Virus record (IMG/VR): IMGVR_UViG_2740892107_000010
Location: 1-35,640 of that record
Origin: a virus
Lineage: Duplodnaviria > Heunggongvirae > Uroviricota > Caudoviricetes
DNA: 35,640 bases
Strand: one strand, 5' to 3'
The notes below the pieces were generated by a model. The model searched no databases and was not told the DNA's origin. It saw nothing but the letters and a program-made list of their open reading frames with translations. Positions 5,814 through 35,048 of this stretch are shown piece after piece. The first letter of the stretch is position 1. Every line of letters starts with the position of its first letter. The position numbers were made by a program, and so were the translations under genes.

Positions 5814-8621
5814 ATGACGGCAGAGTACATCAGGGACTGGCAACAACCGCGCCACGCAGTGGGGCGTGAAGGAACGGGGATCCCCGCTCCTGAATCCGCG
5901 CTTTCCTCCTGGCTGGATGCCTACCGGGTAGAGAACGAGCGCCGCCAGGAAATAGCTGATGCGGCGTTCTCCGCCACGCCGCTGGGCAACCTGATTAATA
6001 AAAGCCTGGACGCACAGGAAAAACAGGACAAAACCATCACACTGGCAGGAGACGCCAGAAAGCAGGCACGCGGCGCGGTGGATGAAGCCATGGCCTCGCT
6101 GCGCCTGCTGCCGTCCTATCTGCGCGATCCGCTTATTCGCCACCTCTCCTTCCTGCGCAAAAAACAGGAAGCCGATCGCCGGAAAGGCAAAAAGAGCTGG
6201 CAGGCGGAACGCTATGCACGCGGAACCCTACGCAAAATATTCGAACGTCTGGATCGCACTGACGGACGCTGGCTGACACCGTGTTATTGCTCCCTTGCCG
6301 GACGCGAACGCCTGGACGATTTGCTTTACCTGCCGCAGCTCAACAAACACCAGATACAGACGCTGGCCACCATGACGGCGGCGATGTTCAGCAGCACTTT
6401 CGAAACACTCTGCGATGGCTTTGGTGCCAGAGATGGCGAGCTGACCATGGATGTAATGTTGAAGGCTTACCGGATGCTGGCTCGTATCGCATTATGCCTG
6501 CATATCATGCCGCCACATTACGAAGCCCTGAACAAGAGCGAACCGGATACGGAACTGCTGCCGGGCGCAATCCTTCGCCTGACCTGTGCGGAATGGTGGA
6601 AACGCAAACTGTGGCTTTTACGTTGCGAGTGGAGAGAAGAACAACTCCGCGCCGCCTGTCTGGTTTCCAGAAAAACATCACCCTATCTGAGCCAGGACGC
6701 GTTAAGCGAGTTTCGCGCACAGCGCGAGAAAACACGCGATTTCCTGAAAAGTTTCATGCTGGAAAACGAAGACGGGTTCACGATTGATCTCGAGACAGTG
6801 TATTACGCGGGAGTAAGTAACCCGGTTCACCGTAAGGCAGAAATGATGGCCACCATGAAGGGACTGGAACTTCTGGCCGAAGCCCGTGGCGACAAAGCGG
6901 TGTTTCTGACTGTCACCTGCCCGTCAAAATACCACGCTACAACAGAGAACGGTCATCCGAATCCCAAATGGAACGGGGCCACCATGCGCGACTCCAGCGA
7001 TTACCTGGTTAACACGTTTTTTGCGGCGGTCCGCAAGAAACTGAACCGCGACGGTCTGCGCTGGTATGGCATCCGCACGGTGGAGCCTCATCATGACGGC
7101 ACTGTGCACTGGCATATGATGGTCTTTGCTCATCCGGAAGAAATCGACAGCATCGTGGCCATCACCCGCGATATTGCCATTCAGGAAGACCGCCACGAAC
7201 TGGGCAATGATATTACTCCGCGCTTTAAGGCGGAGTACGTCGACGGCTCAAAAGGCACGCCAACCAGCTATATCGCGACCTACATCGGAAAGAACCTGGA
7301 CAGCCGCGCCGTGGATGGAATCGACCCGAAAACGGGCAAACCACGCGTTGACCACGAAACCGGAAAATCAATGGCCGAGAGCGTGGAGCGCGCCATCGGC
7401 TGGGCGCGCCTTCATCGGGTCCGCCAGTTCCAGTTCTTTGGCATCCCCTCCCGTCAGGTGTGGCGTGAACTGCGCCGCCTTGCCAGCCAGATGGCACGCA
7501 ACCCGGAAGGCCCGCAACGGCTGAAGGATGACGCAATGGATGCGGTACTCGCTGCCGCCGATGCCGGGTGTTTTGCCTCCTACATTGAAAAACAGGGCGG
7601 CGTACTTGTTCCACGTAAAGACTACCTGATTCGCACCGCCTACGACCTCGCAGATGAGCTGAACGATTACGGCGAGCAGAGTGTACAGATTTACGGGATC
7701 TGGTCGCCGCTCATCGGGGAGTCTTCCCGCGTGTGCACGCACCCGGATAACTGGAAGCTGGTAAGACGTAAACCGGAAGCGGAAGACAGCGCCCGCGAAA
7801 ATGGTTTTGACCTTCAGGGCGGCCCTGCCGCCCCTTGGACTCGTGGCAATAACTGTCCCCGTGTACAGGAAACGAGCAACAACGGAACAGAACAGCCGGA
7901 AGAACGGCCAGCACCGTGGCCGCAGCTTCCTGACGGCGTTGAAGTAAATGAATGGATGCGCTCACTGAAACGGCACGAACGCCGGGCGCTGATGCGTTCG
8001 CTTCGTGACAAACAGGCAAAAAACAGCAGCGATGAAATGCAGAACTGGACACAGAGCCGCAAACAGCCGCGACCTTTGCCTGATAACCACGAGTTACTCG
8101 CTAAAGAATGGCGGGAGTCTGCCGAATCTCTCGGCCTGCATATCGGTGAACAACAGATGCTGCACCTGTTACGGGGCGGCAGTCTGTACGTTGACGGCAG
8201 CATCATTGCACCGCAGGGATTTGAAATTGTACGCAAACCAGATACCCGACCGGACAGCCGAATCACGCAGCTCTGGCAGCGCCTGAGCCGTAATCACGGC
8301 GTAAGCAGCACGGAGATCCGCCATAACCCGGTCGCCAGCTATCTGGAACAGCTAGGGGCATCAGACCCCGAAGCCGCCGCACGCCTGGCATCCACACTTC
8401 AGCAGGACCAGAACACCATGAAGACACCCGTTACCGTGCTTTCTGACATGCTGCGCGCCATCCGTGACGCAGAGCACGCACAGAGAATCAGTGAAACCAC
8501 TGAACGCGCCCACCGCAAAGCAGACCTGCTGCGGGGTGGCCTGACCCGTGGGAACAAAAAACAGACAGAAACGGGATTCACAAATCCCGTAAATGAGCAA
8601 AAAAAGCGCCGCGAAATATGA
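5814..8621 (+). CDS. A: Rolling-circle replication initiator (P2 gpA family endonuclease)
   Basis: 935 aa; HUH-type motif VHWHMMVFA near residue 430; position after the early operon as in P2/186. Confidence 0.85.
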   Translation: MTAEYIRDWQQPRHAVGREGTGIPAPESALSSWLDAYRVENERRQEIADAAFSATPLGNLINKSLDAQEKQDKTITLAGDARKQARGAVDEAMASLRLLPSYLRDPLIRHLSFLRKKQEADRRKGKKSWQAERYARGTLRKIFERLDRTDGRWLTPCYCSLAGRERLDDLLYLPQLNKHQIQTLATMTAAMFSSTFETLCDGFGARDGELTMDVMLKAYRMLARIALCLHIMPPHYEALNKSEPDTELLPGAILRLTCAEWWKRKLWLLRCEWREEQLRAACLVSRKTSPYLSQDALSEFRAQREKTRDFLKSFMLENEDGFTIDLETVYYAGVSNPVHRKAEMMATMKGLELLAEARGDKAVFLTVTCPSKYHATTENGHPNPKWNGATMRDSSDYLVNTFFAAVRKKLNRDGLRWYGIRTVEPHHDGTVHWHMMVFAHPEEIDSIVAITRDIAIQEDRHELGNDITPRFKAEYVDGSKGTPTSYIATYIGKNLDSRAVDGIDPKTGKPRVDHETGKSMAESVERAIGWARLHRVRQFQFFGIPSRQVWRELRRLASQMARNPEGPQRLKDDAMDAVLAAADAGCFASYIEKQGGVLVPRKDYLIRTAYDLADELNDYGEQSVQIYGIWSPLIGESSRVCTHPDNWKLVRRKPEAEDSARENGFDLQGGPAAPWTRGNNCPRVQETSNNGTEQPEERPAPWPQLPDGVEVNEWMRSLKRHERRALMRSLRDKQAKNSSDEMQNWTQSRKQPRPLPDNHELLAKEWRESAESLGLHIGEQQMLHLLRGGSLYVDGSIIAPQGFEIVRKPDTRPDSRITQLWQRLSRNHGVSSTEIRHNPVASYLEQLGASDPEAAARLASTLQQDQNTMKTPVTVLSDMLRAIRDAEHAQRISETTERAHRKADLLRGGLTRGNKKQTETGFTNPVNEQKKRREI

Positions 8622-8661
8622 AGCGCGCACAAAACAGGCAAAAGCGGGATTTCAGAATCCC
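8573..8661. repeat. Two copies of a 16-bp palindrome gggatt-N4-aatccc, each followed by gtaa
   Basis: gggattcacaaatccc at 8573-8588 (inside the 3-prime end of A) and gggatttcagaatccc at 8646-8661 (just upstream of the parM-like start). Confidence 0.6.
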
Positions 8662-8697
8662 GTAACCGATTAATTAATCAATATAAGGAAAATCGAC

Positions 8698-9657
8698 ATG
8701 AAAATTTGTATCGACGACGGCTCCACCAACATCAAGCTGGCATGGACTGAGAACGGCGAACGCCGCAACGCCATCAGCCCGAACAGCTTCAAGTCGGAAT
8801 GGTCTGCGCCGTTCGGTGGCACGCATCCCGCGAACTACATGCTTGATGGCGTGCGCTATGGCTTTGATCCGGTCAGCGATCGCTTTGTCCAGACGACTGA
8901 CACGCAATACCAGTACAGCGATGTGAATGTAATCGCCATTCATCACGCGCTGGTCAAATCAGGCATCACACCACAGGAAGTGGATGTGGTTGTCACCCTG
9001 CCACTGAGTGAGTATTTCGACACAAACGCACAGCCGGACATGGCCAACATCAACCGCAAAAAAGCGAACGTCATGCGCCCGGTGGAGTACCAGAACGGCG
9101 AAGCATTCACTATCCGTAACGTACGGGTTATGCCTGAATCCATTCCGGCTGGCTTTAAAGCACTGGCTGACATGAGTCCGTTTGAATCCCTGCTGATTGT
9201 GGATTTAGGCGGAACCACGCTGGATGTGGCAAAGGTTCAGGGACAACTGGCAGGTATCAGCCAGGTGTTTTGCGATCCACACGTAGGCGTTTCCCTGATG
9301 GCCGATGCCGTACTGTCGGTGATGGCCACTAACGGTATGCGTACCAGTCACCACATCGCCAATACCATTATCGAACATCGCCATGATGAAGCCTGGCTGC
9401 GCCAGCACATCCACAATGACGCGCATTACGCCAGCCTGATGGCGGTTATTCGTGAAAAGGAAGAAACACTGAAACAACGCGTGATCCGCGCGCTGGCGGG
9501 TTTTTCGGGTTACGGGCGGGTGATGGTTGTCGGTGGCGGGGCGGAGATTGTGGCACCCGCTATCCGCGAAGCCTGCGGAGTTAATGCGACTTTCATCGCG
9601 GACGGGGTGCCACAGTTTGCTCTGGTTAATGGGCTGTACGCAATGGACAAGGAGTAA
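8698..9657 (+). CDS. parM: ParM/StbA-like actin-family ATPase
   Basis: N-terminus MKICIDDGSTNIKLAW...ISPNSFKSEW...YQYSDVNVIAIHHALVKSGI closely resembles plasmid R1 ParM as I recall it (MLVFIDDGSTNIKLQW...). Confidence 0.8.
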   Translation: MKICIDDGSTNIKLAWTENGERRNAISPNSFKSEWSAPFGGTHPANYMLDGVRYGFDPVSDRFVQTTDTQYQYSDVNVIAIHHALVKSGITPQEVDVVVTLPLSEYFDTNAQPDMANINRKKANVMRPVEYQNGEAFTIRNVRVMPESIPAGFKALADMSPFESLLIVDLGGTTLDVAKVQGQLAGISQVFCDPHVGVSLMADAVLSVMATNGMRTSHHIANTIIEHRHDEAWLRQHIHNDAHYASLMAVIREKEETLKQRVIRALAGFSGYGRVMVVGGGAEIVAPAIREACGVNATFIADGVPQFALVNGLYAMDKE

Positions 9658-9660
9658 ACC

Positions 9661-9973
9661 AATGACGACACCAACCAGACGAATAAGTTTCTATCTGAAG
9701 CCTGCCGCCGTCAAGAACGAAGGCGAAGCATGCGCCTGGCTGGACAGCCTTACACCAGAAGCCCGTAAAAACGGCCAACGCGTGGCTTTTCTGGCTGGTC
9801 TGGCGCTTCTGAAAATGAATCCGGCAGAGGCTTACCGACTGGCAGCATGGGCTGACGATGAGGCGTTATCAGTGACACAAACCAGGACAGAACGCCCCCT
9901 GTCACAGCCAGTACCAACCGCACAGATAACCAGTCAGATGGCCGGAAATATCAGGGCATTATTTCCTGAATAA
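9661..9973 (+). CDS. parR: ParR-like adaptor protein
   Basis: 104 aa directly after parM; RISFYLKP...LDSLTPEARK...AFLAGLALLKMNP...ALFPE resembles R1 ParR as I recall it; AGGAG ribosome-binding site. Confidence 0.6.
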
Positions 9974-10036
9974 CACAACGTCAGGGCGAGTTCGCCCTGA
10001 TCTCCATCTCAGAACATAAACAAGAAGAGCGACTTA

Positions 10037-10420
10037 ATGAGCAAAATCAACTATCAGGCATTACGTGAACGTTATTCACCTGCACCAGTACCAAAATGCC
10101 CTATTTGCGGCGAAGAAATGTCAATTCAGCGAATATCTGGAGCACTGGTTGTTTATGGCTGCTCCGGTTATGGTGATGATGGAGATTTCAAAATTGGTCG
10201 AACTCTTGCCGACGAACATTATGAAAAATCACGCGTAACAGTGTTGGATGTCGGGGATCCTGAAGTATTGGCGCTACTTGATTGGCTGGAAACCAAAGAC
10301 AACCGAATCGCTGAACTGGAAAAAATCGCCACTGACTATGCACTTAAATTCCAGAAAGCACAGGACGCATTAAAGTACGCCGCTTTGCTGCATAGCAGGA
10401 CAGTGCAGCTACAAGACTAA
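10037..10420 (+). CDS. Hypothetical protein with N-terminal CxxC zinc-ribbon-like motif
   Basis: 127 aa; CPICGEE ... YGCSGYG; helical C-terminal half. Confidence 0.55.
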   Translation: MSKINYQALRERYSPAPVPKCPICGEEMSIQRISGALVVYGCSGYGDDGDFKIGRTLADEHYEKSRVTVLDVGDPEVLALLDWLETKDNRIAELEKIATDYALKFQKAQDALKYAALLHSRTVQLQD

Positions 10421-10510
10421 CTTAAAGCGGAAGATTAATACATGGTGAGTCGGGGTAATTTGTTTTTATCCCGACAAATAAACAAAAAAGTGGACTATCT
10501 CTGTAGTATC

Positions 10511-11042
10511 TTATTCAGCATCGTCTCGTGCAGTCTGTGCATACGTCACAACAACGCCCAATGCATTAGTTTTCTTTTCAACATAGATAATATTGTCATA
10601 TTCATAGTTACCATACGGATAGCAAATAAGAATATTTTTATGCAGATCGGGATCATCAACAAACGCTCCGGAACAGCTTCTTGAACTACCGGATGTATAC
10701 TCATACGGTGCAACATATGATGATGTTACTCCTGGTAAAAAATAAGTCACCATCATAAGAGGGATAATCAGGAATATCCCTGTAAGAATGCAAGAGCCAG
10801 CATAAACCTTCAGGTATTCCGACAGTCCTTTCCAGCCACTTTGCTTCACTACCCCCCCTCTTCACCAGAAACAAGGAGAAGAAAAAGGACATACCCATAC
10901 TACACAAGATGTAATAATTGGATATACGCGAATTAAGATATGTAATCCTGTAGATATCTGCCCTCCACCAGTAAAAGAGGAAAATAATCCCTAGCACTGA
11001 AACAGTCATGCAAATCAAATAAGGATATGAATCTTTCTTCAT
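10511..11042 (-). CDS. AT-rich membrane protein gene, split into two overlapping frames at a C7/G7 tract
   Basis: ORF 10701-11042 (two hydrophobic segments) and ORF 10511-10849 (one hydrophobic segment) overlap in different frames; removing one base from the C7 run at 10852-10858 fuses them into about 175 aa. Confidence 0.5.
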
Positions 11043-11519
11043 GTCTTGCGCTCATTAAAATTTCCCTGCTACGAACAAATTTACCATCCGTTTTTTGCGC
11101 AGAAAACAGCACGATGCACACTGCACGATAGTGCACAAATTTGCACAATTTTTTTGAACGACTTTTTACCCTTCCGGCCAGCATGGCGGCTGGATCCGTC
11201 AAGGATCCGTGCGTGCACAAAAAAACGCGCTTTTTCTGCGCGCAGGTGACGGGGGAACAGCCCGCGTTTCAGGGGGTAAATAGCATTCCCTGAACGATGT
11301 CGCAGCGACACAACAGAATGGCTGTATTTCTCACACTGAGCGTGAAAAAGACGTGAGGGCTTTTGATTTGATGGGGTGACAGACAAGGCCGTCAAAATCG
11401 CACTGAGGCGGCAAGAACATGCAGTCGACGCGGTGGGATTGCGTAAGAGCCTGACCGTCGATGATGGCGATAAGCTGGAAGACGTCGTGAAATTATCTGA
11501 TTGATACAGGAGCTGGAGA

Positions 11520-11548
11520 GTCGGGGCATAAATTTTTTATGCCCCGGC
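11520..11548 (-). terminator. Hairpin downstream of portal gene
   Basis: Inverted repeat ggggcataaa / tttatgcccc at 11523-11545, immediately 3-prime of the Q stop on the minus strand. Confidence 0.4.
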
Positions 11549-11572
11549 GAAGCAGCAGACAAGCGAAGCGCG

Positions 11573-12619
11573 TCAGGATGTGGGCTGAGTGTCCAGCAGT
11601 GCGTAAGGGTTAAAGCGGATCACCTCTTCGCCAAGCCAGTCATTGATATGCTTCATGGCCTCCATTACGGGCATCAGCTCGTTAATTGCGTAAACCCGCG
11701 CTGCCTTCTCCACATCACCAAACGCACTTTTTTCGCCCGGCATCGCCCCCATCAGTTGCGGCGGAACGCGGTGCGCAGCCAGCACATCATCACGGGATGC
11801 CGCCTTAACATTCATGAACTCATCTTTTGCGGTGATCTGCTGGAACGGCAAAATTTGCACCCCCTCTTTGCCCCCGTTGGGCGCGTGAATGAGCACGTTT
11901 TTAAACGCACCACCACCACGTGCACCCTGTAGCGTTTCCTTCAGGGAGTCCATGCTTTCGCGGTTTACCTGCGCTGCACCGATGTAGATGATGCACCCGG
12001 CGTGGGATCCGTTGTCGTAATACAGTTTTCTGAACATGTCCGCCGAATGAGACAGGCTGGCCGAGAGTAATGCGCCGAGATATTCCGGCATGCCGTAGAT
12101 TTCCTGGTTAATGTCAGGATTCATCAGGTGGCACACTTTGCCAGAGCGAAACTGAAACGCGTCCTTGCCATCCTGCACATACCACCATGATTCAAGATCG
12201 CTTCCGCGTCGCATGTATTTCGCCAGGGCGTGCCGTAATTTAAGCGGTTCGCCGAGCATATTGCTTCGAAGCTCAAGGAATGCGTTACCGAACACAAACC
12301 AGTCCAGCGCCAGCGCCGAGAAATCCTGCCGGGAAAGCAGCGGATGCGGAATATAGCAGCCGAGCAATACATTACGCTTAAAGTAAAGCGCAGACTGATG
12401 CCAGGACGTTTGCCGGGCAGCTCTTGCCAGACCGTACCAGTCCACCGGGGTTTCATACCACCGCCCGTTATCAGCACAGTACATATTGTCCAGCAGGTCA
12501 TGCCCGGTCAGGCGGTAAGGACCATCAAATGTGAATGCACTGAGCGACGATTCTTTCCTGAGCGCATCAGCGAGATCAATGCGTGAACTCATGCGCACTT
12601 TTTTATTTTTTCTGCTCAT
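11573..12619 (-). CDS. Q: Portal protein (P2 gpQ family)
   Basis: 348 aa, size and position match P2 Q; start overlaps the terminase stop (ATGA). Confidence 0.85.
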   Translation of the reverse strand: MSRKNKKVRMSSRIDLADALRKESSLSAFTFDGPYRLTGHDLLDNMYCADNGRWYETPVDWYGLARAARQTSWHQSALYFKRNVLLGCYIPHPLLSRQDFSALALDWFVFGNAFLELRSNMLGEPLKLRHALAKYMRRGSDLESWWYVQDGKDAFQFRSGKVCHLMNPDINQEIYGMPEYLGALLSASLSHSADMFRKLYYDNGSHAGCIIYIGAAQVNRESMDSLKETLQGARGGGAFKNVLIHAPNGGKEGVQILPFQQITAKDEFMNVKAASRDDVLAAHRVPPQLMGAMPGEKSAFGDVEKAARVYAINELMPVMEAMKHINDWLGEEVIRFNPYALLDTQPTS

Positions 12620-22784: not shown

Positions 22785-25403
22785 ATGAGCACGAAATTTA
22801 AAACCGTTATCACTACTGCCGGAGCCGCAAAGCTGGCTGCCGCCACTGTCCCCGGCGGGAAAAAAGTAAACCTGTCTGCAATGGCCGTGGGTGACGGTAA
22901 TGGCAAATTACCGGTGCCGGATGCCGGTCAGACGAAACTGGTGCATGAGGTCTGGCGTCACGCTCTGAATAAAGTCAGTGTGGATAATAAGAATAAAAAC
23001 TATATTGTGGCTGAACTGGTTGTTCCGCCAGAAGTGGGCGGCTTCTGGATGCGTGAGCTTGGTCTGTATGACGATGCCGGAACACTGATTGCGGTATCCA
23101 ACATGGCAGAAAGCTATAAGCCAGAACTGGCTGAAGGCTCCGGACGTGCGCAGACCTGCCGCATGGTTATTATTCTCAGCAACGTGGCGTCCGTTGAGCT
23201 GAGTATTGATGCCAGCACAGTGATGGCGACGCAGGATTACGTCGATGACAAAATCGCAGAGCATGAGCAGTCCCGCCGCCATCCTGACGCCACGCTGACA
23301 GAAAAAGGTTTTACTCAGTTAAGCAGTGCAACAAACAGCACCAGTGAAAAGCTGGCGGCAACGCCAAAAGCGGTCAAGGCTGCGAATGACAACGCAAATT
23401 CACGTCTGGCGAAAAATCAGAACGGTGCAGATATCCAGGATAAATCAGCTTTTCTGGACAATGTTGGCGTTACCAGCCTGACGTTTATGAAAAACAATGG
23501 CGAAATGCCGCTTGATGCTGATCTGAATACGTTTGGTCCTGTTAAGGCTTATTCAGGTATCTGGTCTAAAGCAACATCCACCAACGCAACACTGGAGAAA
23601 AATTTCCCGGAAGATAATGCTGTCGGTGTGCTTGAGGTTTTTGCTGCCGGCAATTTTGCAGGTACGCAACGCTTTACCACGAGAGACGGCAATGTATACA
23701 TGCGTAAACTCGCCAATAAGTGGAATGGCACTGATGGTCCGTGGGGCGTATGGCGTCACACTCAATCTGCTACCCGCCCTTTGAGTACGACTATAGACCT
23801 GAATACGCTTGGAGCCGCCGAGCATCTTGGTTTATGGCGTAACAGTAGCTCAGCTATAGCTTCATATGAACGCAATTATCCAGAGGAAGGCGGCTTTGCT
23901 CAGGGGATGCTTGAGATCCTCGAAGGCGGAAATTATGGAAGAACGCAACGTTATACCACTCGCCGTGGAAATATGTATGTCCGCTGTCTTGCGGCAAGCT
24001 GGGATGCATCAAATCCGCAGTGGGAACCGTGGTTAAGAGTCGGTCATCAGTCAGAGAGTCGTTATTACGAAGGTGATTTAAATGTTCTAACCGACCCCGG
24101 TATTTACAGTGTTACAGGAAAGGCAACAAACGGTCCGATGCTGGACACCGTTGGCGCGACACTACTTGGGATACTGGAAGTAATCAGACGTTTTGATGGT
24201 GTGTCTGTCTGGCAGCGTTACACAACCACAGGGAAATCAGAAACCACACAGGGACGCACTTTTGAGCGCGTCTACGCCGGGAGCAAATGGACCGAATGGC
24301 GAGAAGTATATAACTCCTTTTCGTTGCCTCTGAATCTGGGCATCGGTGGCGCAGTGGCAAAACTATCCAGTCTGGACTGGCAGACCTACGATTTTGTGCC
24401 GGGCAGTCTGATAACCGTGCGGCTTGATAACATGACCAACATTCCCGACGGTATGGACTGGGGCGTCATTGATGGCAACCTGATAAACATCGCAGTTGGT
24501 CCGAGTGATGATTCCGGTACGGGGCGCTCAATGCATGTATGGCGCAGCACTGTAAGTAAAGCGAACTACCGCTTTTTTATGGTGCGTATTTCAGGAAATC
24601 CGGGAAGCCGCACGATTACAGCAAGACGAGTACCAATCATTGACGAAGCCCAGACATGGGGCGCGAAACAGACATTCAGTGCTGGCCTTTCTGGTGAGCT
24701 GTCAGGCAATGCTGCTACAGCAACAAAGCTGAAAACGGCAAGGACAATTAACGGCGTAAAATTTGACGGCTCAGCAAATATTGAAGCGTTTCCGCCAGGT
24801 GTTCCGCTGCCGTGGCCATCAGATACACCACCTGCAGGCTATGCAATTATGCAGGGGCAGACGTTTGATAAGGCAGCATATCCGAAACTGGCTGTTGCCT
24901 ATCCTTCAGGTGTTATTCCTGATATGCGCGGCTGGACAATCAAGGGCAAACCCGCCAGTGGGCGTGCCGTATTGTCACAGGAGCAGGACGGGATTAAATC
25001 GCATACTCACAGCGCCAGTGCGTCAAATACGGACTTAGGAACGAAAACGACCAGTTCATTTGATTACGGGACAAAAACAGTCAGTACGTTTAACCACGGC
25101 ACAAAATCAACCAATACTTCTGGCAATCATACACATACCGTCGGTTTTGCTGTGAGCGTGCAATCAGGCGGTGCAGATTATGGTGTTCCGCGAAGTGATA
25201 AAGGTGCTACGACTACAAGTTCATCAGGCAATCATGCACATACAGTCAACATTGGAGCACATAACCATACTGTTGGTATTGGTGCACATTCACACACGGT
25301 TGCTATTGGCTCACACGGGCACTCTATTACCGTTAATGCTACAGGTAATACAGAAAATACCGTAAAAAACATCGCATTTAACTATATTGTGAGGCTTGCA
25401 TAA
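22785..25403 (+). CDS. H: Tail fiber protein (P2 gpH family)
   Basis: 872 aa; conserved fiber N-terminus; three internal repeated segments; C-terminus rich in H-x-H repeats. Confidence 0.9.
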
Positions 25404-25978
25404 TGGCTTTCAGAATGAGTGCAGAAGCACAAACTATCCGCGTATTTAATTTACTTGATGGAACCAATGAATTTATTGGGGAAAGTGAAGCGTATATTCC
25501 ACCGTATACAGGTCTGCCAGCAAACAGTACAGATATTGCACCACCTGATATTCCTGCTGGTTATGCAGCCGTTTTCAATGCAGATGAAATGAAATGGGAA
25601 CTGATGGAAGACCATCGCGGAAAGACCGTCTATGAAACGAAAACAGGAGCAGCCATTTATATTTCTGAACTTGGCGCATTACCTCCAGACGTGACAGCCA
25701 TTTCCCCGGAGGGGGATTATCAGAAATGGAACGGAAATGCGTGGGTGAATGATGAGAATGCAGAGCGTGATGCACTTGTCAGAGCCGCCGAATCTCAGAA
25801 GAGAGAACAAATCGCTTATGCGAGTAAGATCATTGCTACTTTGCAGGACGCTGTTGATTTAGATATAGCGACAGAAGACGAAAAGATAAACTTGACACGC
25901 TGGAAGAAGTACCGTGTATTGGTGAATCGTATTCAACCAGAAAATACCACCGATATTGATTGGCCAGAGCAACCATGA
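25403..25978 (+). CDS. G: Tail fiber assembly chaperone (P2 gpG family)
   Basis: 191 aa immediately after H. Confidence 0.8.
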
Positions 25979-25982
25979 AAAA

Positions 25983-26006
25983 AGGCGCTTACTGCGCCTT
26001 TTTTTG
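25983..26006. terminator. Bidirectional rho-independent terminator
   Basis: Stem aggcgc / gcgcct with loop ttact, A-run before and T7 after; overlaps the last codons of the convergent acetyltransferase gene. Confidence 0.65.
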
Positions 26007-26531
26007 TCTTATAACAGGAGTTATTTCGTTTATATATATTGAGTTGGAAGGAATAGATTTTGTTACCAGAGCATGAGCACCTATCGTAACGTTATCACCG
26101 ATATTAACTTGCCCACCAAGGATAGATGAATTGCAACCTATATCAACATTATCTCCAATAGTAATCATTGCCTCATTGGAAGGGGTTCTTAGACCAATAG
26201 TAACACCTTGCTTTATATGTAGATTTCTCCCTATCACACAGTTTTCTGTAATAACAATACCTGATAAGTGAGCAATATCTAAGCCTGGCCCTATACTCAC
26301 TGTTAAAGGAATCTCAACATTATAATCGCGATGAAGGTTTGCTCCGATGCGTTTGCCCACCCGGCGCATGAACCCTCCTCTGCTGTATAGATAGCTGGCC
26401 ACTCGCCACCAAAACATAAAGTGTTTTCGCCTATTGCGTCTGGTGCGAGTTAAAGCTTTTCTCCATGAAAACTCATGGTTTCCGCCTATAACTTCTATTT
26501 TTATACACTCCTTTAATGTTTTTATATCCAT
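25989..26531 (-). CDS. Hexapeptide-repeat (left-handed beta-helix) acetyltransferase, AT-rich cargo gene
   Basis: 180 aa with repeated [LIV]-G-x4 hexads (IGDNVDIG, VNIGDNVTIG, VIGRNLHIKQGVTIG); AT-rich; convergent with the tail-fiber operon. Confidence 0.75.
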   Translation of the reverse strand: MDIKTLKECIKIEVIGGNHEFSWRKALTRTRRNRRKHFMFWWRVASYLYSRGGFMRRVGKRIGANLHRDYNVEIPLTVSIGPGLDIAHLSGIVITENCVIGRNLHIKQGVTIGLRTPSNEAMITIGDNVDIGCNSSILGGQVNIGDNVTIGAHALVTKSIPSNSIYINEITPVIRQKKAQ

Positions 26532-26712
26532 GAATTTAATCTCTGCATTATCACTTACAATGTAATGGGGTGTTAATCTGACTGGGTGTGTAATGAACTC
26601 TCAAGAAATTATATTGTGGCTACTGGATGTATTCAATAAGATGGAACCAACATGTAATGTGCTTGAATGGTCCGATATGTTACGGACCATTTATCACAAG
26701 AAATTAAACTCT

Positions 26713-27207
26713 TTAAAATAAACTATGAACTGAGTTAGCCACGCTATTTAAAGACGAGGTTACCTTATCTTTGAAGCCAGTCAGCATATCGCTGAACGAT
26801 GAGGATTGCAGGCGCTCCCGCAAATCCTCATCACAGCGGTCAAGGGTCAGTGAAAACTCTATCTTTTTTGCCTTGCCGTAGCGATCAAACTCGGAGCGGG
26901 TCGTACTTGTGTCAGTCAGAACATACATGCCGTAAATCTGCCCGACGCCATCAATCAGAGGCCAGGGGCGCCCTGTATACGCCTGCGTGGTCAGCAGCGA
27001 CAGGGACACTTCGCCACCTGTGATTTCAGGATAAAGCACACCAGAAAGAACGACGCGATCATCACCTGCACCGATATACTGCCAGCTTGCTGAACGGTTA
27101 ACGCGCTCATTTTTCACATGCCGCCAGCTTTTGTTTTGCTGTAACTGCTGATGCGGCAATGTGCGCAGCTCAAAAACAAACATGCCGTAGATCATCATCA
27201 TGACCAT
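26713..27207 (-). CDS. U: Tail protein U (P2 gpU family)
   Basis: 164 aa immediately downstream of the tape-measure gene. Confidence 0.75.
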   Translation of the reverse strand: MVMMMIYGMFVFELRTLPHQQLQQNKSWRHVKNERVNRSASWQYIGAGDDRVVLSGVLYPEITGGEVSLSLLTTQAYTGRPWPLIDGVGQIYGMYVLTDTSTTRSEFDRYGKAKKIEFSLTLDRCDEDLRERLQSSSFSDMLTGFKDKVTSSLNSVANSVHSLF

Positions 27208-32445: not shown

Positions 32446-33555
32446 ATGACCGACACCACCATGCAATTGCTCAGTCAGAGCACAGACCCCGTAAAAATGC
32501 CGGATTTTGATATTCTCGCGGAGGGTAAAACGCTGTCCGGCGTGGCAGAGCGCCTGATGAGCCTGTCGCTGACCGACAACCGGGGATTTGAGGCAGACCA
32601 GCTCACCATCACGCTGGATGATGCGGATGGTCAGTTGCAGCTACCGCCACGGGGCGCGCGCCTGACGGTTCTCATTGGCTGGAAAGGCGAACCGCTGACA
32701 GAAAAAGGGTCTTACATTGTTGATGAAATCGCACACGAAGGACCGCCAGACAGGCTGACTGTTTCAGCCAGAAGCGCAGATTTTCGGGATGAATTTAACG
32801 TTAAACGTGAAGTGTCCTGGCATGATGTGACCGTTGAGCGCGTGGTATCCGCCATCGCTCATCGGTATGGTCTGAAACCGCAAATCAGCGAAATGCTGAT
32901 GGATATTGAAATCGACCACGCCGACCAGACCGAAGAAAGCGACATGTCCTTCCTTACGCGCATGGCGGAAATGCTGGGCGCAATCACTACGGTAAAAAGC
33001 GGTAATCTGTTATTCATCATGCCAGGTGGTGGCGTGAACGCACAGGGCCAGCCGTTGCCCTCGTTCGCCATTACACGCAGCAGCGGCGATCGCCATCAGT
33101 TCCGTATTGCTGACCGCGAGGCGTATACGGGGGTACGCGCCTACTGGCTTGATCTTAATTACGGGAAAAAGAAAAAAGTCAGCGTGAAACGCCGTAAACC
33201 GCCAAAACCCAAAAAGGAGAAAAGCAGCAGCCGTGAAGGTGATTATATGGAAGGCGCGGAAGGCAATGTGTTTGTGTTACGCAAGACTTATCAGAACGAG
33301 CAGGCAGCAAGACGCGCAGCGGCGGCAAAGTGGCAGCAACTACAACGCGGAGCCGCATCATTCTCCATCACGCTGGCGCGTGGACGTGCAGAACTCTATC
33401 CCGAAATGCATGGCACGGTGACAGGCTTCAAAAGTGACATCGACAATCAGGACTGGATTATTGCAAAAGCCGAGCACACCATTGATAACAGCGGCTTTAC
33501 CACGCAGCTTGAGCTTGAGGCAAAAATCCCGGAATGGATAGCAGAAACAGCGTGA
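32446..33555 (+). CDS. D: Tail protein D (P2 late control gene D family)
   Basis: About 369 aa from ATG 32446 with GGGAGGG ribosome-binding site; the longer upstream ORF start at 32314 looks like an artefact. Confidence 0.8.
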   Translation: MTDTTMQLLSQSTDPVKMPDFDILAEGKTLSGVAERLMSLSLTDNRGFEADQLTITLDDADGQLQLPPRGARLTVLIGWKGEPLTEKGSYIVDEIAHEGPPDRLTVSARSADFRDEFNVKREVSWHDVTVERVVSAIAHRYGLKPQISEMLMDIEIDHADQTEESDMSFLTRMAEMLGAITTVKSGNLLFIMPGGGVNAQGQPLPSFAITRSSGDRHQFRIADREAYTGVRAYWLDLNYGKKKKVSVKRRKPPKPKKEKSSSREGDYMEGAEGNVFVLRKTYQNEQAARRAAAAKWQQLQRGAASFSITLARGRAELYPEMHGTVTGFKSDIDNQDWIIAKAEHTIDNSGFTTQLELEAKIPEWIAETA

Positions 33556-33646
33556 ATGTCTTAAATGTATTAGTTCAGATATGTACTAGCAATAAACATA
33601 GTTAGAAAGGCCGCTAACGCGGCCATATTAATTAAAACTCCAGTTA

Positions 33647-34816
33647 CTAATATTGAGAAAGATAATCAGCGACTCCATCTGCAGGGTTTCGCCCACCAGT
33701 ATAAATTGTGCCTAATTCTTGAGGTGTAACATATGTTGTAGGCCAAATGGCCATATTTTTAAAATAGTTATCTATTTTTATTCTTTGAAGTTCTTTAAAG
33801 AGATAATCTTCTAAGTCATTTCTTTTTAGACAGTTAACATAATAAGCAGCCGCACTTGCTACTATATCTACAATTTGTAATTGAGGATACTCTTGTGATG
33901 AATGGAATGTCAAAGAACGAGCTTTAATTGGCAATTCAAATTTTCTTCGATCATAACCATATGCCTCCGTAATTTTTGATATATCCATAAATTTATCAAA
34001 AATATCTTTCTTCTCTGTAATAGCTTTGGAATCGTCATGCTTAATATAAAAACCATTAGGGTATAATTTACCCCATTCTACACAGTGTCTAAAGAGGCTT
34101 GGTATAGATGGATCTAATGTGCTTTTCTCAACACCTTCCAATATATCATCAATATCGCTTCTGGTAATACTAATTCTGTTTATTATATCTGTGAATATCT
34201 TATCACTTGAGCATATCTTTAACTCATCAATTACCCTGTAAAATTCATCAATTGACTCAGTCGATTGGCTTCTGATCATATTCATAAAACACTGATACAT
34301 TACCTCTGTTTTTTCCTCCCCACAGAAAGCAGGGAAACAGAAATAGTAAACATTAGACAGAGCTAGATTCTGTCCATTTATATAAAGATCTATTCCTCTA
34401 TTAGAGCACCACGTCTCGATCAAAATATCAACAATCTTTGCTGTTAGCATGTATTTTTTATCGACCAAGTATATTTTAACATTCTCTTCATTGACATATT
34501 TGCTTTCAAGAAGCCTAATGATGCCATCCTGACCAGATTTTCTACGTCTAAGAGTTTTAAAGTGGGCTTCTGTTGGAGACTTGCTTCCGGTTAGTTCTAA
34601 TGCCTTAAGCGCATCCTGTTTACTAATACTACTTGAACTTAAGGTAAAAACAGGTTGCAATGGATCGAGTAAATTTCCGCCAGTATTACCTGATTCATCA
34701 AAAAATATATCAGGCTTTATATACAACATTTTATTTATCTTTGCCGCTAAGTTTCTTTTTTTCTCATTTTCTCGCTTAATTTTATTATCTCGCCTACGTT
34801 GACTATTCTTTCCCAT
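33647..34816 (-). CDS. AT-rich 389-aa cargo protein of unknown function (DUF3800-like N-terminal motif, tentative)
   Basis: Low GC; GAGG ribosome-binding site 5 nt upstream of ATG 34816; N-terminal IFFDESGNTG motif that I recall as typical of the DUF3800 family; inserted between D and ogr on the opposite strand. Confidence 0.7.
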   Translation of the reverse strand: MGKNSQRRRDNKIKRENEKKRNLAAKINKMLYIKPDIFFDESGNTGGNLLDPLQPVFTLSSSSISKQDALKALELTGSKSPTEAHFKTLRRRKSGQDGIIRLLESKYVNEENVKIYLVDKKYMLTAKIVDILIETWCSNRGIDLYINGQNLALSNVYYFCFPAFCGEEKTEVMYQCFMNMIRSQSTESIDEFYRVIDELKICSSDKIFTDIINRISITRSDIDDILEGVEKSTLDPSIPSLFRHCVEWGKLYPNGFYIKHDDSKAITEKKDIFDKFMDISKITEAYGYDRRKFELPIKARSLTFHSSQEYPQLQIVDIVASAAAYYVNCLKRNDLEDYLFKELQRIKIDNYFKNMAIWPTTYVTPQELGTIYTGGRNPADGVADYLSQY

Positions 34817-35048
34817 AAATACCTCACAATCTGAATTAGATATCCCAATTTAACGCATTAATAACATAATGTTATGATATCACACAATCAAAATAACGTG
34901 CTGATTTTAATGTATCAGGTTTGACTAGCTATTCTTTGATAAGCGAATAATAAGAATGTCAGCCCCTCAACTCAAAGCGGTTTAGTCAGTTGGAATCGGA
35001 GCTAGTAGAACTTAAAATAACAGAAGCACCACGTTAAGGGAGGTCTCT

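What the first reader, a model, noticed from the sequence alone, without database searches (positions are those of the whole stretch)
10037..10420. Zinc-ribbon protein of unknown function in the A-to-cos cargo interval
A 127-aa protein with an N-terminal CxxC motif and a helical C-terminus sits between the ParMR-like pair and an AT-rich membrane gene, convergent with the latter. It is not a recognisable P2 core gene, and its position makes it a candidate component of an accessory or defence module.
Basis: inference. Interest (0 to 1): 0.55.

Follow-up and report, generated by a model that had tools for sequence, protein, structure and literature searches.

The report
Truncated Ea22-like phage gene remnant
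The 127-residue "zinc-ribbon protein" is the front two-thirds of a known phage gene family (Ead/Ea22-like) whose tail end was cut off when a small foreign DNA cassette was swapped into a variable spot of a P2-like prophage, so it is ordinary rather than a new defence component.

Summary
It is not of unknown family. It matches Pfam PF13935 (Ead/Ea22-like) at E=1e-28, and RefSeq annotates the same locus as [quoted passage not shown]. Sibling P2-like phages, including the sequenced phage Xuanwuvirus P88_4B11, carry a 196-aa version in the same slot (A–ParM–ParR–Ea22-like–cos). In the window a ~712-bp AT-rich cassette (10409..11120) replaced the last 72 codons. That cassette carries the oppositely oriented membrane-protein gene. 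The ORF ends three codons into the cassette.

What remains is a conserved N-terminal module plus about four heptads of coiled coil. The module has invariant C21, C24, C42 and H61 (C-x2-C-x17-C-x18-H), which suggests zinc binding. The variable C-terminal domain is gone.

The two neighbours are not a co-inherited pair, and neither matches a defence-system model. In this window the membrane gene is also broken by a +1 frameshift in a C7 run. That C7 version was found in none of 5,426 complete E. coli genomes.

Verdict: known family, recombination remnant in the documented P2 gpA–gpQ hotspot. Residual function is uncertain. Low interest.

The parts
10037..10420 (+). 3'-truncated ead/Ea22-like ORF (127 aa). 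Codons 1-124 are homologous to 196-aa relatives. Codons 125-127 (LQD) and the stop come from the inserted cassette.
   Evidence: PGAP 'incomplete; missing C-terminus'
10037..10069 (+). N-terminal family motif MSKINYQALRE (residues 1-11). This is the only stretch shared with lambda Ea22 and 933W Ea22.
10073..10246 (+). CCCH zinc-ribbon-like module (residues 13-70). Invariant Y13, P19, C21, C24, C42, G54, R55, D59, H61, Y62, S65. Beta-hairpin 29-33/37-41, short helix 60-65, strand 67-70.
   Evidence: only weak, non-significant zinc-ribbon similarities
10259..10408 (+). Junction helix (DPEVLALLDWLE) and coiled-coil stalk, residues 75-124, about four heptads. The truncation falls at its C-terminal end.
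10409..11120 (.). About 712-bp AT-rich replacement cassette. Relative to the full-length locus L002 it replaces 72 codons, the stop and about 38 bp downstream.
   Evidence: distribution
10511..11042 (-). Cassette cargo: a gene for a 176-aa membrane protein with hydrophobic, apparently membrane-spanning segments in its N-terminal part (PHROG 1416, unknown function). It is split here by a +1 frameshift into ORFs 10701..11042 and 10511..10849.
10852..10858 (.). C7 homopolymer (G7 on the coding strand) that carries the extra base. Siblings have C6 and an intact gene.

Best explanation
The ORF is the 5' 124 codons of an ead/Ea22-like gene (Pfam PF13935). In sibling P2-like phages a full 196-aa copy is the last gene before cos, downstream of gene A and a parMR pair. 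A cassette swap at this known recombination hotspot replaced the gene's last 72 codons and about 38 bp downstream with a ~712-bp AT-rich segment. That segment carries an oppositely oriented membrane-protein gene. The right crossover lay in conserved cos-proximal DNA. The left crossover lay inside the gene, at the boundary between the coiled coil and the C-terminal domain.

The resulting product keeps the family's N-terminal motif, a CCCH (C21, C24, C42, H61) zinc-ribbon-like head and a coiled-coil stalk of about four heptads. It lacks the variable C-terminal domain.

Inferred mechanism: intact family members act as early-expressed, oligomeric coiled-coil scaffolds that present an interchangeable C-terminal domain to a host or phage partner. 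In lambda and Phi24B they bias the lysis-lysogeny decision towards lysogeny. Without that domain, this copy is most likely a recombination remnant with little or no independent function (about 55-60%). It is less likely to be an active protein.

Shown here: family membership, the truncation, the breakpoints, the conserved CCCH residues, and the lack of linkage to the neighbour. Inferred: zinc binding, oligomerisation, and loss of function.
For: Family: PF13935 E=1.1e-28, residues 2-116 against profile positions 1-110 of 139. PHROGs 368, 1138, 250 and 1667 also match.

Truncation: 283 homologues were found. The closest are 196 aa, 94% identical over residues 1-124, and then continue for 72 more residues. 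The full-length gene sits in the same slot in L002 and in phage P88_4B11. The DNA alignment shows identity up to about 10408 and again from 11121. PGAP flags the same ORF as incomplete in three genomes.

Right crossover: a cassette homologue in a prophage remnant is followed by P2 cos-like sequence.

Counts in complete E. coli genomes: 134 with the full-length form and 62 with the truncated form plus cassette.

CCCH conservation. Models: pLDDT 76 for the whole protein and 84.5 for the head domain.

Literature: Ea22 consists of an N-terminal region, a tetrameric coiled coil and a variable C-terminal domain, and is pro-lysogenic (PMC10834534, PMC7093339). The 933W ea22 gene is likewise split by an insertion (PMC8614690). 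Unknown-function pseudogenes and recombination remnants are common in P2 hotspots (PMC13586616).
Against: The truncated ORF is still open in all four truncated copies aligned here (window, L001, L003, L005), and the truncated arrangement occurs in at least 62 genomes. A recombinant allele (P0007, 88% identical, 127 aa, same LQD end) is also open. pN/pS between truncated alleles is 0.44, based on only 4 synonymous and 6 non-synonymous changes, so it neither shows nor excludes constraint. The cut falls exactly at a module boundary, so the product could fold and oligomerise. The experimental data on function come from lambda and Phi24B-type proteins, which lack the CCCH module. Functional inference for this subfamily is therefore indirect. 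The direction of the event (full-length to truncated) is inferred from family architecture, not from a rooted phylogeny.
Confidence: 0.8

Rival explanations
1. It is a functional stand-alone Ea22 variant without the C-terminal domain. The CCCH head plus coiled coil is an active unit that still oligomerises. It either keeps a head-domain activity (for example nucleic-acid or protein binding by the zinc module) or co-assembles with Ea22 proteins of co-resident lambdoid phages.
For: The ORF is intact in the four truncated copies aligned here and in a recombinant allele, and the arrangement recurs in 62 genomes. The truncation lies exactly at the end of the coiled coil. The head domain is strongly conserved across 293 clusters and is always N-terminal to variable tails. 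Family lengths range from 82 to 223 aa in the 120 closest relatives, and up to 363 aa among distant representatives. The lambda C-terminal domain alone is inactive, so the N-terminal and coiled-coil parts matter (PMC10834534).
Against: PGAP treats it as a pseudogene. The lost domain is the presumed partner-binding part. No consensus promoter was found nearby. pN/pS of 0.44 on 10 substitutions is uninformative. The 62 copies are at least 98% identical, so their persistence may only reflect recent common descent.
Confidence: 0.3
2. One reading: the zinc-ribbon protein and the convergent membrane protein form a two-gene accessory or defence module in the P2 hotspot.
For: The location is the documented gpA-gpQ defence hotspot. 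The pair recurs together in 62 genomes. A small membrane protein is a common type of exclusion effector (general knowledge).
Against: PADLOC gives no hits for either protein. The full-length ea22-like gene occurs without the membrane gene in 134 genomes and in phage P88_4B11. The membrane gene's homologue is present in 83 genomes, and in the one locus examined (strain D7) it has no ea22 beside it. The junction destroys the ea22-like C-terminus. The membrane gene is frameshifted in this window.
Confidence: 0.04
3. The ORF is spurious: non-coding DNA that happens to be open.
For: None beyond its short length and the absence of a consensus promoter.
Against: Pfam E=1e-28 and hundreds of homologues with conserved residues.
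Confidence: 0.01

Closest known systems
Ead/Ea22-like family (Pfam PF13935 / InterPro IPR025153), CCCH-type members such as the 196-aa protein of Xuanwuvirus P88_4B11 (YP_009877445) and ES18 gp41 (similar to P22 eaD)
   Same: 94-95% identical over residues 1-124 to the P88_4B11-type protein. Same genomic slot after gene A, ParM and ParR. Same N-terminal motif, CCCH module and coiled coil.
   Different: Lacks the C-terminal 72 residues and ends in three cassette-derived codons. ES18 gp41 lies in the early-left 'ea' region of a P22-like phage, not in a P2 hotspot.
[quoted passage not shown]
   Same: Same Pfam family, same first 11-16 residues (MSEINxQALRE), and a central coiled coil. Mosaic, module-swapping evolution. 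The 933W gene is also split by an insertion.
   Different: Lambda has no inserted N-terminal module. 933W has a different 63-aa module without the CCCH residues. Their C-terminal domains, which end in K/R-G-E, are absent here. Their genomic context is exo-xis, not gpA-gpQ.
Small zinc-ribbon DNA-binding modules: the E. coli topoisomerase I C-terminal Zn ribbons, the Zf-GRF domain of APE2, and the zinc beta-ribbon of serine recombinases
   Same: A CxxC knuckle followed by a beta-hairpin. The best (weak) sequence and structure matches are all to this class.
P2 old/tin and other cargo of the P2 gpA-gpQ hotspot
   Same: Same genomic position, and the same swap-by-recombination dynamics that leave remnants (PMC9122126, PMC13586616).
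   Different: No sequence similarity to any known defence protein, and no evidence of anti-phage activity.

Membership tests
Ead/Ea22-like (PF13935) | Match to the family HMM above the curated gathering score | tested here: met
   100.9 bits against a cut-off of 27, E=1.1e-28, residues 2-116. 125 of 133 distant relatives also match.
Ead/Ea22-like (PF13935) | N-terminal motif shared with the founding members (lambda Ea22, 933W Ea22) | tested here: met
   MSKINYQALRE against MSEINSQALRE (9 of 11 identical) and against 933W (11 of 16 identical).
Ead/Ea22-like (PF13935) | Central coiled-coil region | tested here: met
   AF2 helix over residues 75-126 with pLDDT 87-94. Heptad pattern I91/L94/A98/Y101/F105/A108/L112/A115 read from the sequence. 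This is a prediction only.
Ead/Ea22-like (PF13935) | Variable C-terminal domain, commonly ending in a K/R-G-E motif | tested here: not met
   Absent. The ORF stops three codons after residue 124, while relatives continue for 30-100 residues. This is why it counts as a truncated member.
Ead/Ea22-like (PF13935) | Location in the early-left (exo-xis / 'ea') region of lambdoid or P22-like phages | tested here: not met
   Here and in P88_4B11 it lies between parR and cos of a P2-like phage. The ES18 homologue is in the classical position.
Ead/Ea22-like (PF13935) | Tetrameric assembly and a pro-lysogenic phenotype | not testable with these tools
   Known only for lambda, Phi24B and P27 proteins (PMC10834534, PMC7093339).
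Zinc ribbon (Zn_ribbon_Top1 PF01396, Zn_ribbon_recom PF13408, Zf-GRF) | Four zinc ligands arranged in two knuckles | tested here: inconclusive
   C21-x2-C24 forms knuckle 1. C42 and H61 are invariant but do not form a CxxC-type second knuckle. A fourth Cys occurs in only 4 of 120 relatives.
Zinc ribbon (Zn_ribbon_Top1 PF01396, Zn_ribbon_recom PF13408, Zf-GRF) | HMM or structural match at a significant level | tested here: not met
Zinc ribbon (Zn_ribbon_Top1 PF01396, Zn_ribbon_recom PF13408, Zf-GRF) | Zinc actually bound | not testable with these tools
   Needs metal analysis of purified protein.
Known anti-phage defence systems (PADLOC-DB) | Match to a defence-protein model | tested here: not met
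   No hits at E<=1 for the ORF, its full-length relative, ParM, ParR or the membrane protein.
Two-gene module with the membrane neighbour | Conserved co-occurrence of the two genes across genomes | tested here: not met
   Full-length ea22-like gene without the neighbour in 134 genomes. The neighbour's 78% homologue is in 83 genomes, and the one locus examined (strain D7) has no ea22 beside it. They occur together only in the 62-genome truncated lineage.
   The only family hits are PF13935 and unknown-function PHROGs.

The most novel reading that the evidence does not exclude
The truncated product (zinc head plus coiled coil, no C-terminal domain) is retained because it co-assembles through its coiled coil with Ea22 proteins of co-resident or superinfecting lambdoid phages. 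It would then act as a dominant-negative decoy. A P2-like prophage would thereby tamper with a competitor's lysis-lysogeny decision from its cos-proximal hotspot.
Probability: 0.05. Interest if true: 0.55.

Novelty: already known. Interest (0 to 1): 0.15.

Why it matters
It matters mostly as a negative result. This hotspot ORF, which looked like an orphan zinc-ribbon gene, is a known family member that RefSeq already annotates as an incomplete ead/Ea22-like gene. It should not be pursued as a defence candidate.

Two small points may be useful to specialists:
1. A large subfamily of PF13935 carries a strictly conserved CCCH module (C-x2-C-x17-C-x18-H). This module is absent from lambda and 933W Ea22, the only members studied experimentally. 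In the Ea22 papers I could read, 'zinc' is used only for other exo-xis proteins (Ea8.5, Orf73), never for Ea22, and the two papers I searched for 'cysteine' do not use the word.
2. The locus is a clean example of a cassette swap at the P2 gpA-gpQ hotspot. One crossover lay in cos-proximal DNA and the other inside a gene, at a protein-module boundary.

Tried and rejected
1. Defence annotation: PADLOC on the ORF, its full-length relative and all neighbours gave nothing.
2. NCBIfam gave only a sub-threshold topoisomerase I zinc-ribbon hit.
3. Solved-structure searches by sequence found nothing for the 196-aa relative. A domain profile matched only a generic zinc knuckle of LysW.
7. Selection test on truncated alleles: too few substitutions to decide.
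8. Promoter scan: no sigma-70 consensus site between 8500 and 11700. Expression therefore remains unknown.
9. Rfam scan of 9500..11700: one sub-threshold hit only.
10. Repeats at the breakpoints: none convincing.
11. The ACS Omega 2020 Ea22 domain-deletion paper (PMC7271347) is not held in the library.

Full report
**Observation.** The window is a P2-like prophage of E. coli. The order of genes here is replication gene A (5814..8621), ParM (8698..9657), a ParR/StbB-like gene (ends 9973), the ORF in question, then cos-proximal DNA, portal (11573..12619, minus strand) and terminase. The ORF 10037..10420 (+) encodes 127 aa. It has C21-x2-C24 and a predicted long C-terminal helix. It is convergent with an AT-rich minus-strand gene. 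GC is about 0.40-0.43 over 10001-11000, against 0.52-0.59 in the flanking phage genes. The description is therefore accurate.

**Identity.** The protein matches Pfam PF13935 (Ead/Ea22-like) at E=1.1e-28 over residues 2-116. It also matches several unknown-function PHROGs. It matches nothing in PADLOC and nothing significant in NCBIfam. In complete E. coli genomes the same DNA is annotated by PGAP as 'ead/Ea22-like family protein; incomplete; missing C-terminus'.

**Truncation.**
- A search of 5.8 billion proteins returned 283 homologues. The closest (P0001, a cluster of 486 sequences) are 196 aa. They are 94% identical over residues 1-124 and then continue for 72 residues.
- The contig encoding P0001 (L002) and the sequenced phage Xuanwuvirus P88_4B11 show the same arrangement, A-ParM-ParR-Ea22-like(196 aa)-cos, with no minus-strand gene.
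- The DNA alignment of the window with L002 is collinear up to about 10408 (codon 124) and again from 11121. Between these points the window has about 712 bp. L002 has 257 bp there: 72 codons, the stop, and about 38 bp.
- The last three codons (LQD) and the stop of the window ORF therefore belong to the inserted segment.
- The break coincides with the end of the predicted coiled coil. This is also the point where family members diverge from each other.

**The cassette and the neighbour.**
- The inserted segment carries a gene for a 176-aa membrane protein (PHROG 1416, no Pfam or PADLOC match). Its N-terminal part is hydrophobic and looks membrane-spanning (read from the sequence).
- The gene is intact in sibling genomes. 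PGAP nevertheless labels it 'frameshifted' there.
- In the window one extra C in a homopolymer (C7 at 10852-10858, against C6 in siblings) splits it into 10701..11042 and 10511..10849.
- A 46-nt probe spanning the C7 run matched none of 5,426 complete E. coli genomes. The C6 control matched 62. The frameshift is therefore private to this sequence or a homopolymer sequencing error.
- A 78%-identical copy of the cassette is present in 83 genomes. In the one examined (strain D7) it lies in a prophage remnant beside torI/dsdC, has no ea22 next to it, and is followed by P2 cos-like sequence.
- This fits a swap in which the right crossover used conserved cos-proximal DNA and the left crossover fell inside the ea22-like gene.
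- The gpA-gpQ interval is the documented P2 hotspot. There, cassettes are swapped rapidly, and unknown-function pseudogenes and remnants are common (PMC9122126, PMC13586616).
- Among complete E. coli genomes, 134 carry the full-length form and 62 carry the truncated form plus cassette.

**What remains of the protein.**
- I searched residues 1-75 against 1.84 billion cluster representatives. This found 293 clusters, and the domain almost always sits at the N-terminus of proteins of 100-360 aa with unrelated tails.
- Across 144 representatives, and in a curated set of 30 diverse sequences, these residues are invariant or nearly so: P19, C21, C24, C42, G54, R55, D59, H61, Y62, S65.
- A fourth cysteine occurs in only 4 of 120 close relatives.
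- The most economical reading is a Cys3-His metal site, C-x2-C-x17-C-x18-H. This is inferred and not tested.
- AlphaFold2 models the head with pLDDT 84.5: a helix, a beta-hairpin, a short helix and a strand.
- 'Zinc ribbon' is therefore acceptable as a fold class, but not as membership of any named zinc-ribbon family.

**Relation to the studied Ea22 proteins.**
- Lambda Ea22 and 933W Ea22 share only the first 11-16 residues with this protein. Lambda has no inserted N-terminal module, and 933W has a different 63-aa module.
- In ES18 the CCCH-type gene ('similar to P22 eaD') lies in the classical early-left region between the recombination genes and xis/int.
- Published work describes Ea22 as an N-terminal region, a tetrameric coiled coil and a variable C-terminal domain. 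It is expressed early and favours lysogeny. The genes are mosaic, and the 933W gene is itself split by an insertion (PMC10834534, PMC7093339, PMC8614690).
- None of the Ea22 papers I could read applies 'zinc' to Ea22 itself, and the two I searched for 'cysteine' lack the word. The domain-deletion paper (PMC7271347) was not available.

**Function.** The mechanism I commit to is as follows. Intact family members are oligomeric coiled-coil scaffolds with an N-terminal module and an exchangeable C-terminal partner-binding domain. This copy has lost that domain through a hotspot swap. It is most likely a remnant with little or no independent role (about 55-60%). A residual role for the zinc head plus coiled coil remains possible (about 30%). 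The evidence for that is: the ORF is open in all four truncated copies I aligned and in a recombinant allele (P0007), the arrangement recurs in 62 genomes, and the cut is at a module boundary. pN/pS between truncated alleles is 0.44, but on only ten substitutions. No consensus promoter was found. A two-gene module with the membrane neighbour is not supported, because the genes are not co-inherited and the junction is the truncation scar.

**Verdict.** This is a known family, already annotated as an incomplete gene at this locus. Novelty: already known. Interest: low.

Noticed in passing
window 10852-10858 (within the minus-strand gene 10511..11042): A C7 homopolymer carries one base more than in all sibling prophages (C6), which frameshifts the 176-aa membrane-protein gene. 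The C7 context was found in 0 of 5,426 complete E. coli genomes and the C6 context in 62. It is either a private mutation or a homopolymer sequencing error.
   Followed up: yes
L001 12912-13487 and L003 2592-3167 (equivalent to window 10511-11086): PGAP labels the membrane-protein gene 'frameshifted' in sibling genomes, although a clean 176-aa ORF with an ATG start exists there. The pseudogene call probably comes from alignment to a longer reference and may be an annotation artefact.
   Followed up: partly
window 8698-9973: A complete ParM/ParR (StbA/StbB-type) plasmid partition pair sits between gene A and the cos-proximal hotspot of this P2-like phage. It is also present in phage P88_4B11. 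No centromere-like iteron array was identified. Whether this phage can be maintained as a plasmid was not examined.
   Followed up: no
window 8555-8592 and 8628-8665: Two 38-nt direct repeats (79% identical), each containing a CGGGATT...AATCCCG hairpin, bracket the stop codon of gene A just upstream of parM (also listed as terminator-like). They may be terminators or part of a parC-like site.
   Followed up: no
window 10443-10472 and 11514-11543: The hairpin between the truncated ea22-like ORF and the membrane gene (GTCGGG...CCCGAC, 10449-10475) resembles the hairpin downstream of the portal gene: 73% over 30 nt (family D2). This could be chance, or a hint that the cassette came from a cos/portal-proximal site of another element.
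   Followed up: no
L004 3060-3800 (E. coli D7, beside torI/dsdC): A 78%-identical copy of the membrane-gene cassette lies in a degraded prophage remnant. It is followed by sequence resembling the P2 cos-proximal region (GGGGTAAATAG...ACACAACAGAATGG) and flanked by a YqaJ pseudogene and an IS4 transposase pseudogene.
   Followed up: partly
L007 4103-4876 (933W ea22) compared with window 10073-10246: PF13935 proteins carry at least three alternative states between the conserved MSEINxQALRE start and the '...VLALLDE' junction: none (lambda), a cysteine-poor 63-aa module (933W), or the CCCH module seen here. This amounts to N-terminal module shuffling in addition to the known C-terminal shuffling.
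   Followed up: partly
window 33500-35000 and 25000-27000: Further low-GC segments (0.33-0.35 and 0.40-0.46). They include a 389-aa minus-strand ORF at 33647..34816 near the end of the prophage, and ORFs downstream of the tail-fibre gene. They are likely other cargo or hotspot regions and were not examined.
   Followed up: no
window 5814-8621 and 596-1720: The gene A product is 935 aa here, against 946 aa in L001 and L002. The integrase ORF (374 aa) differs from that of L001 (975-nt gene). The window prophage is therefore mosaic relative to its closest hotspot siblings.
   Followed up: no
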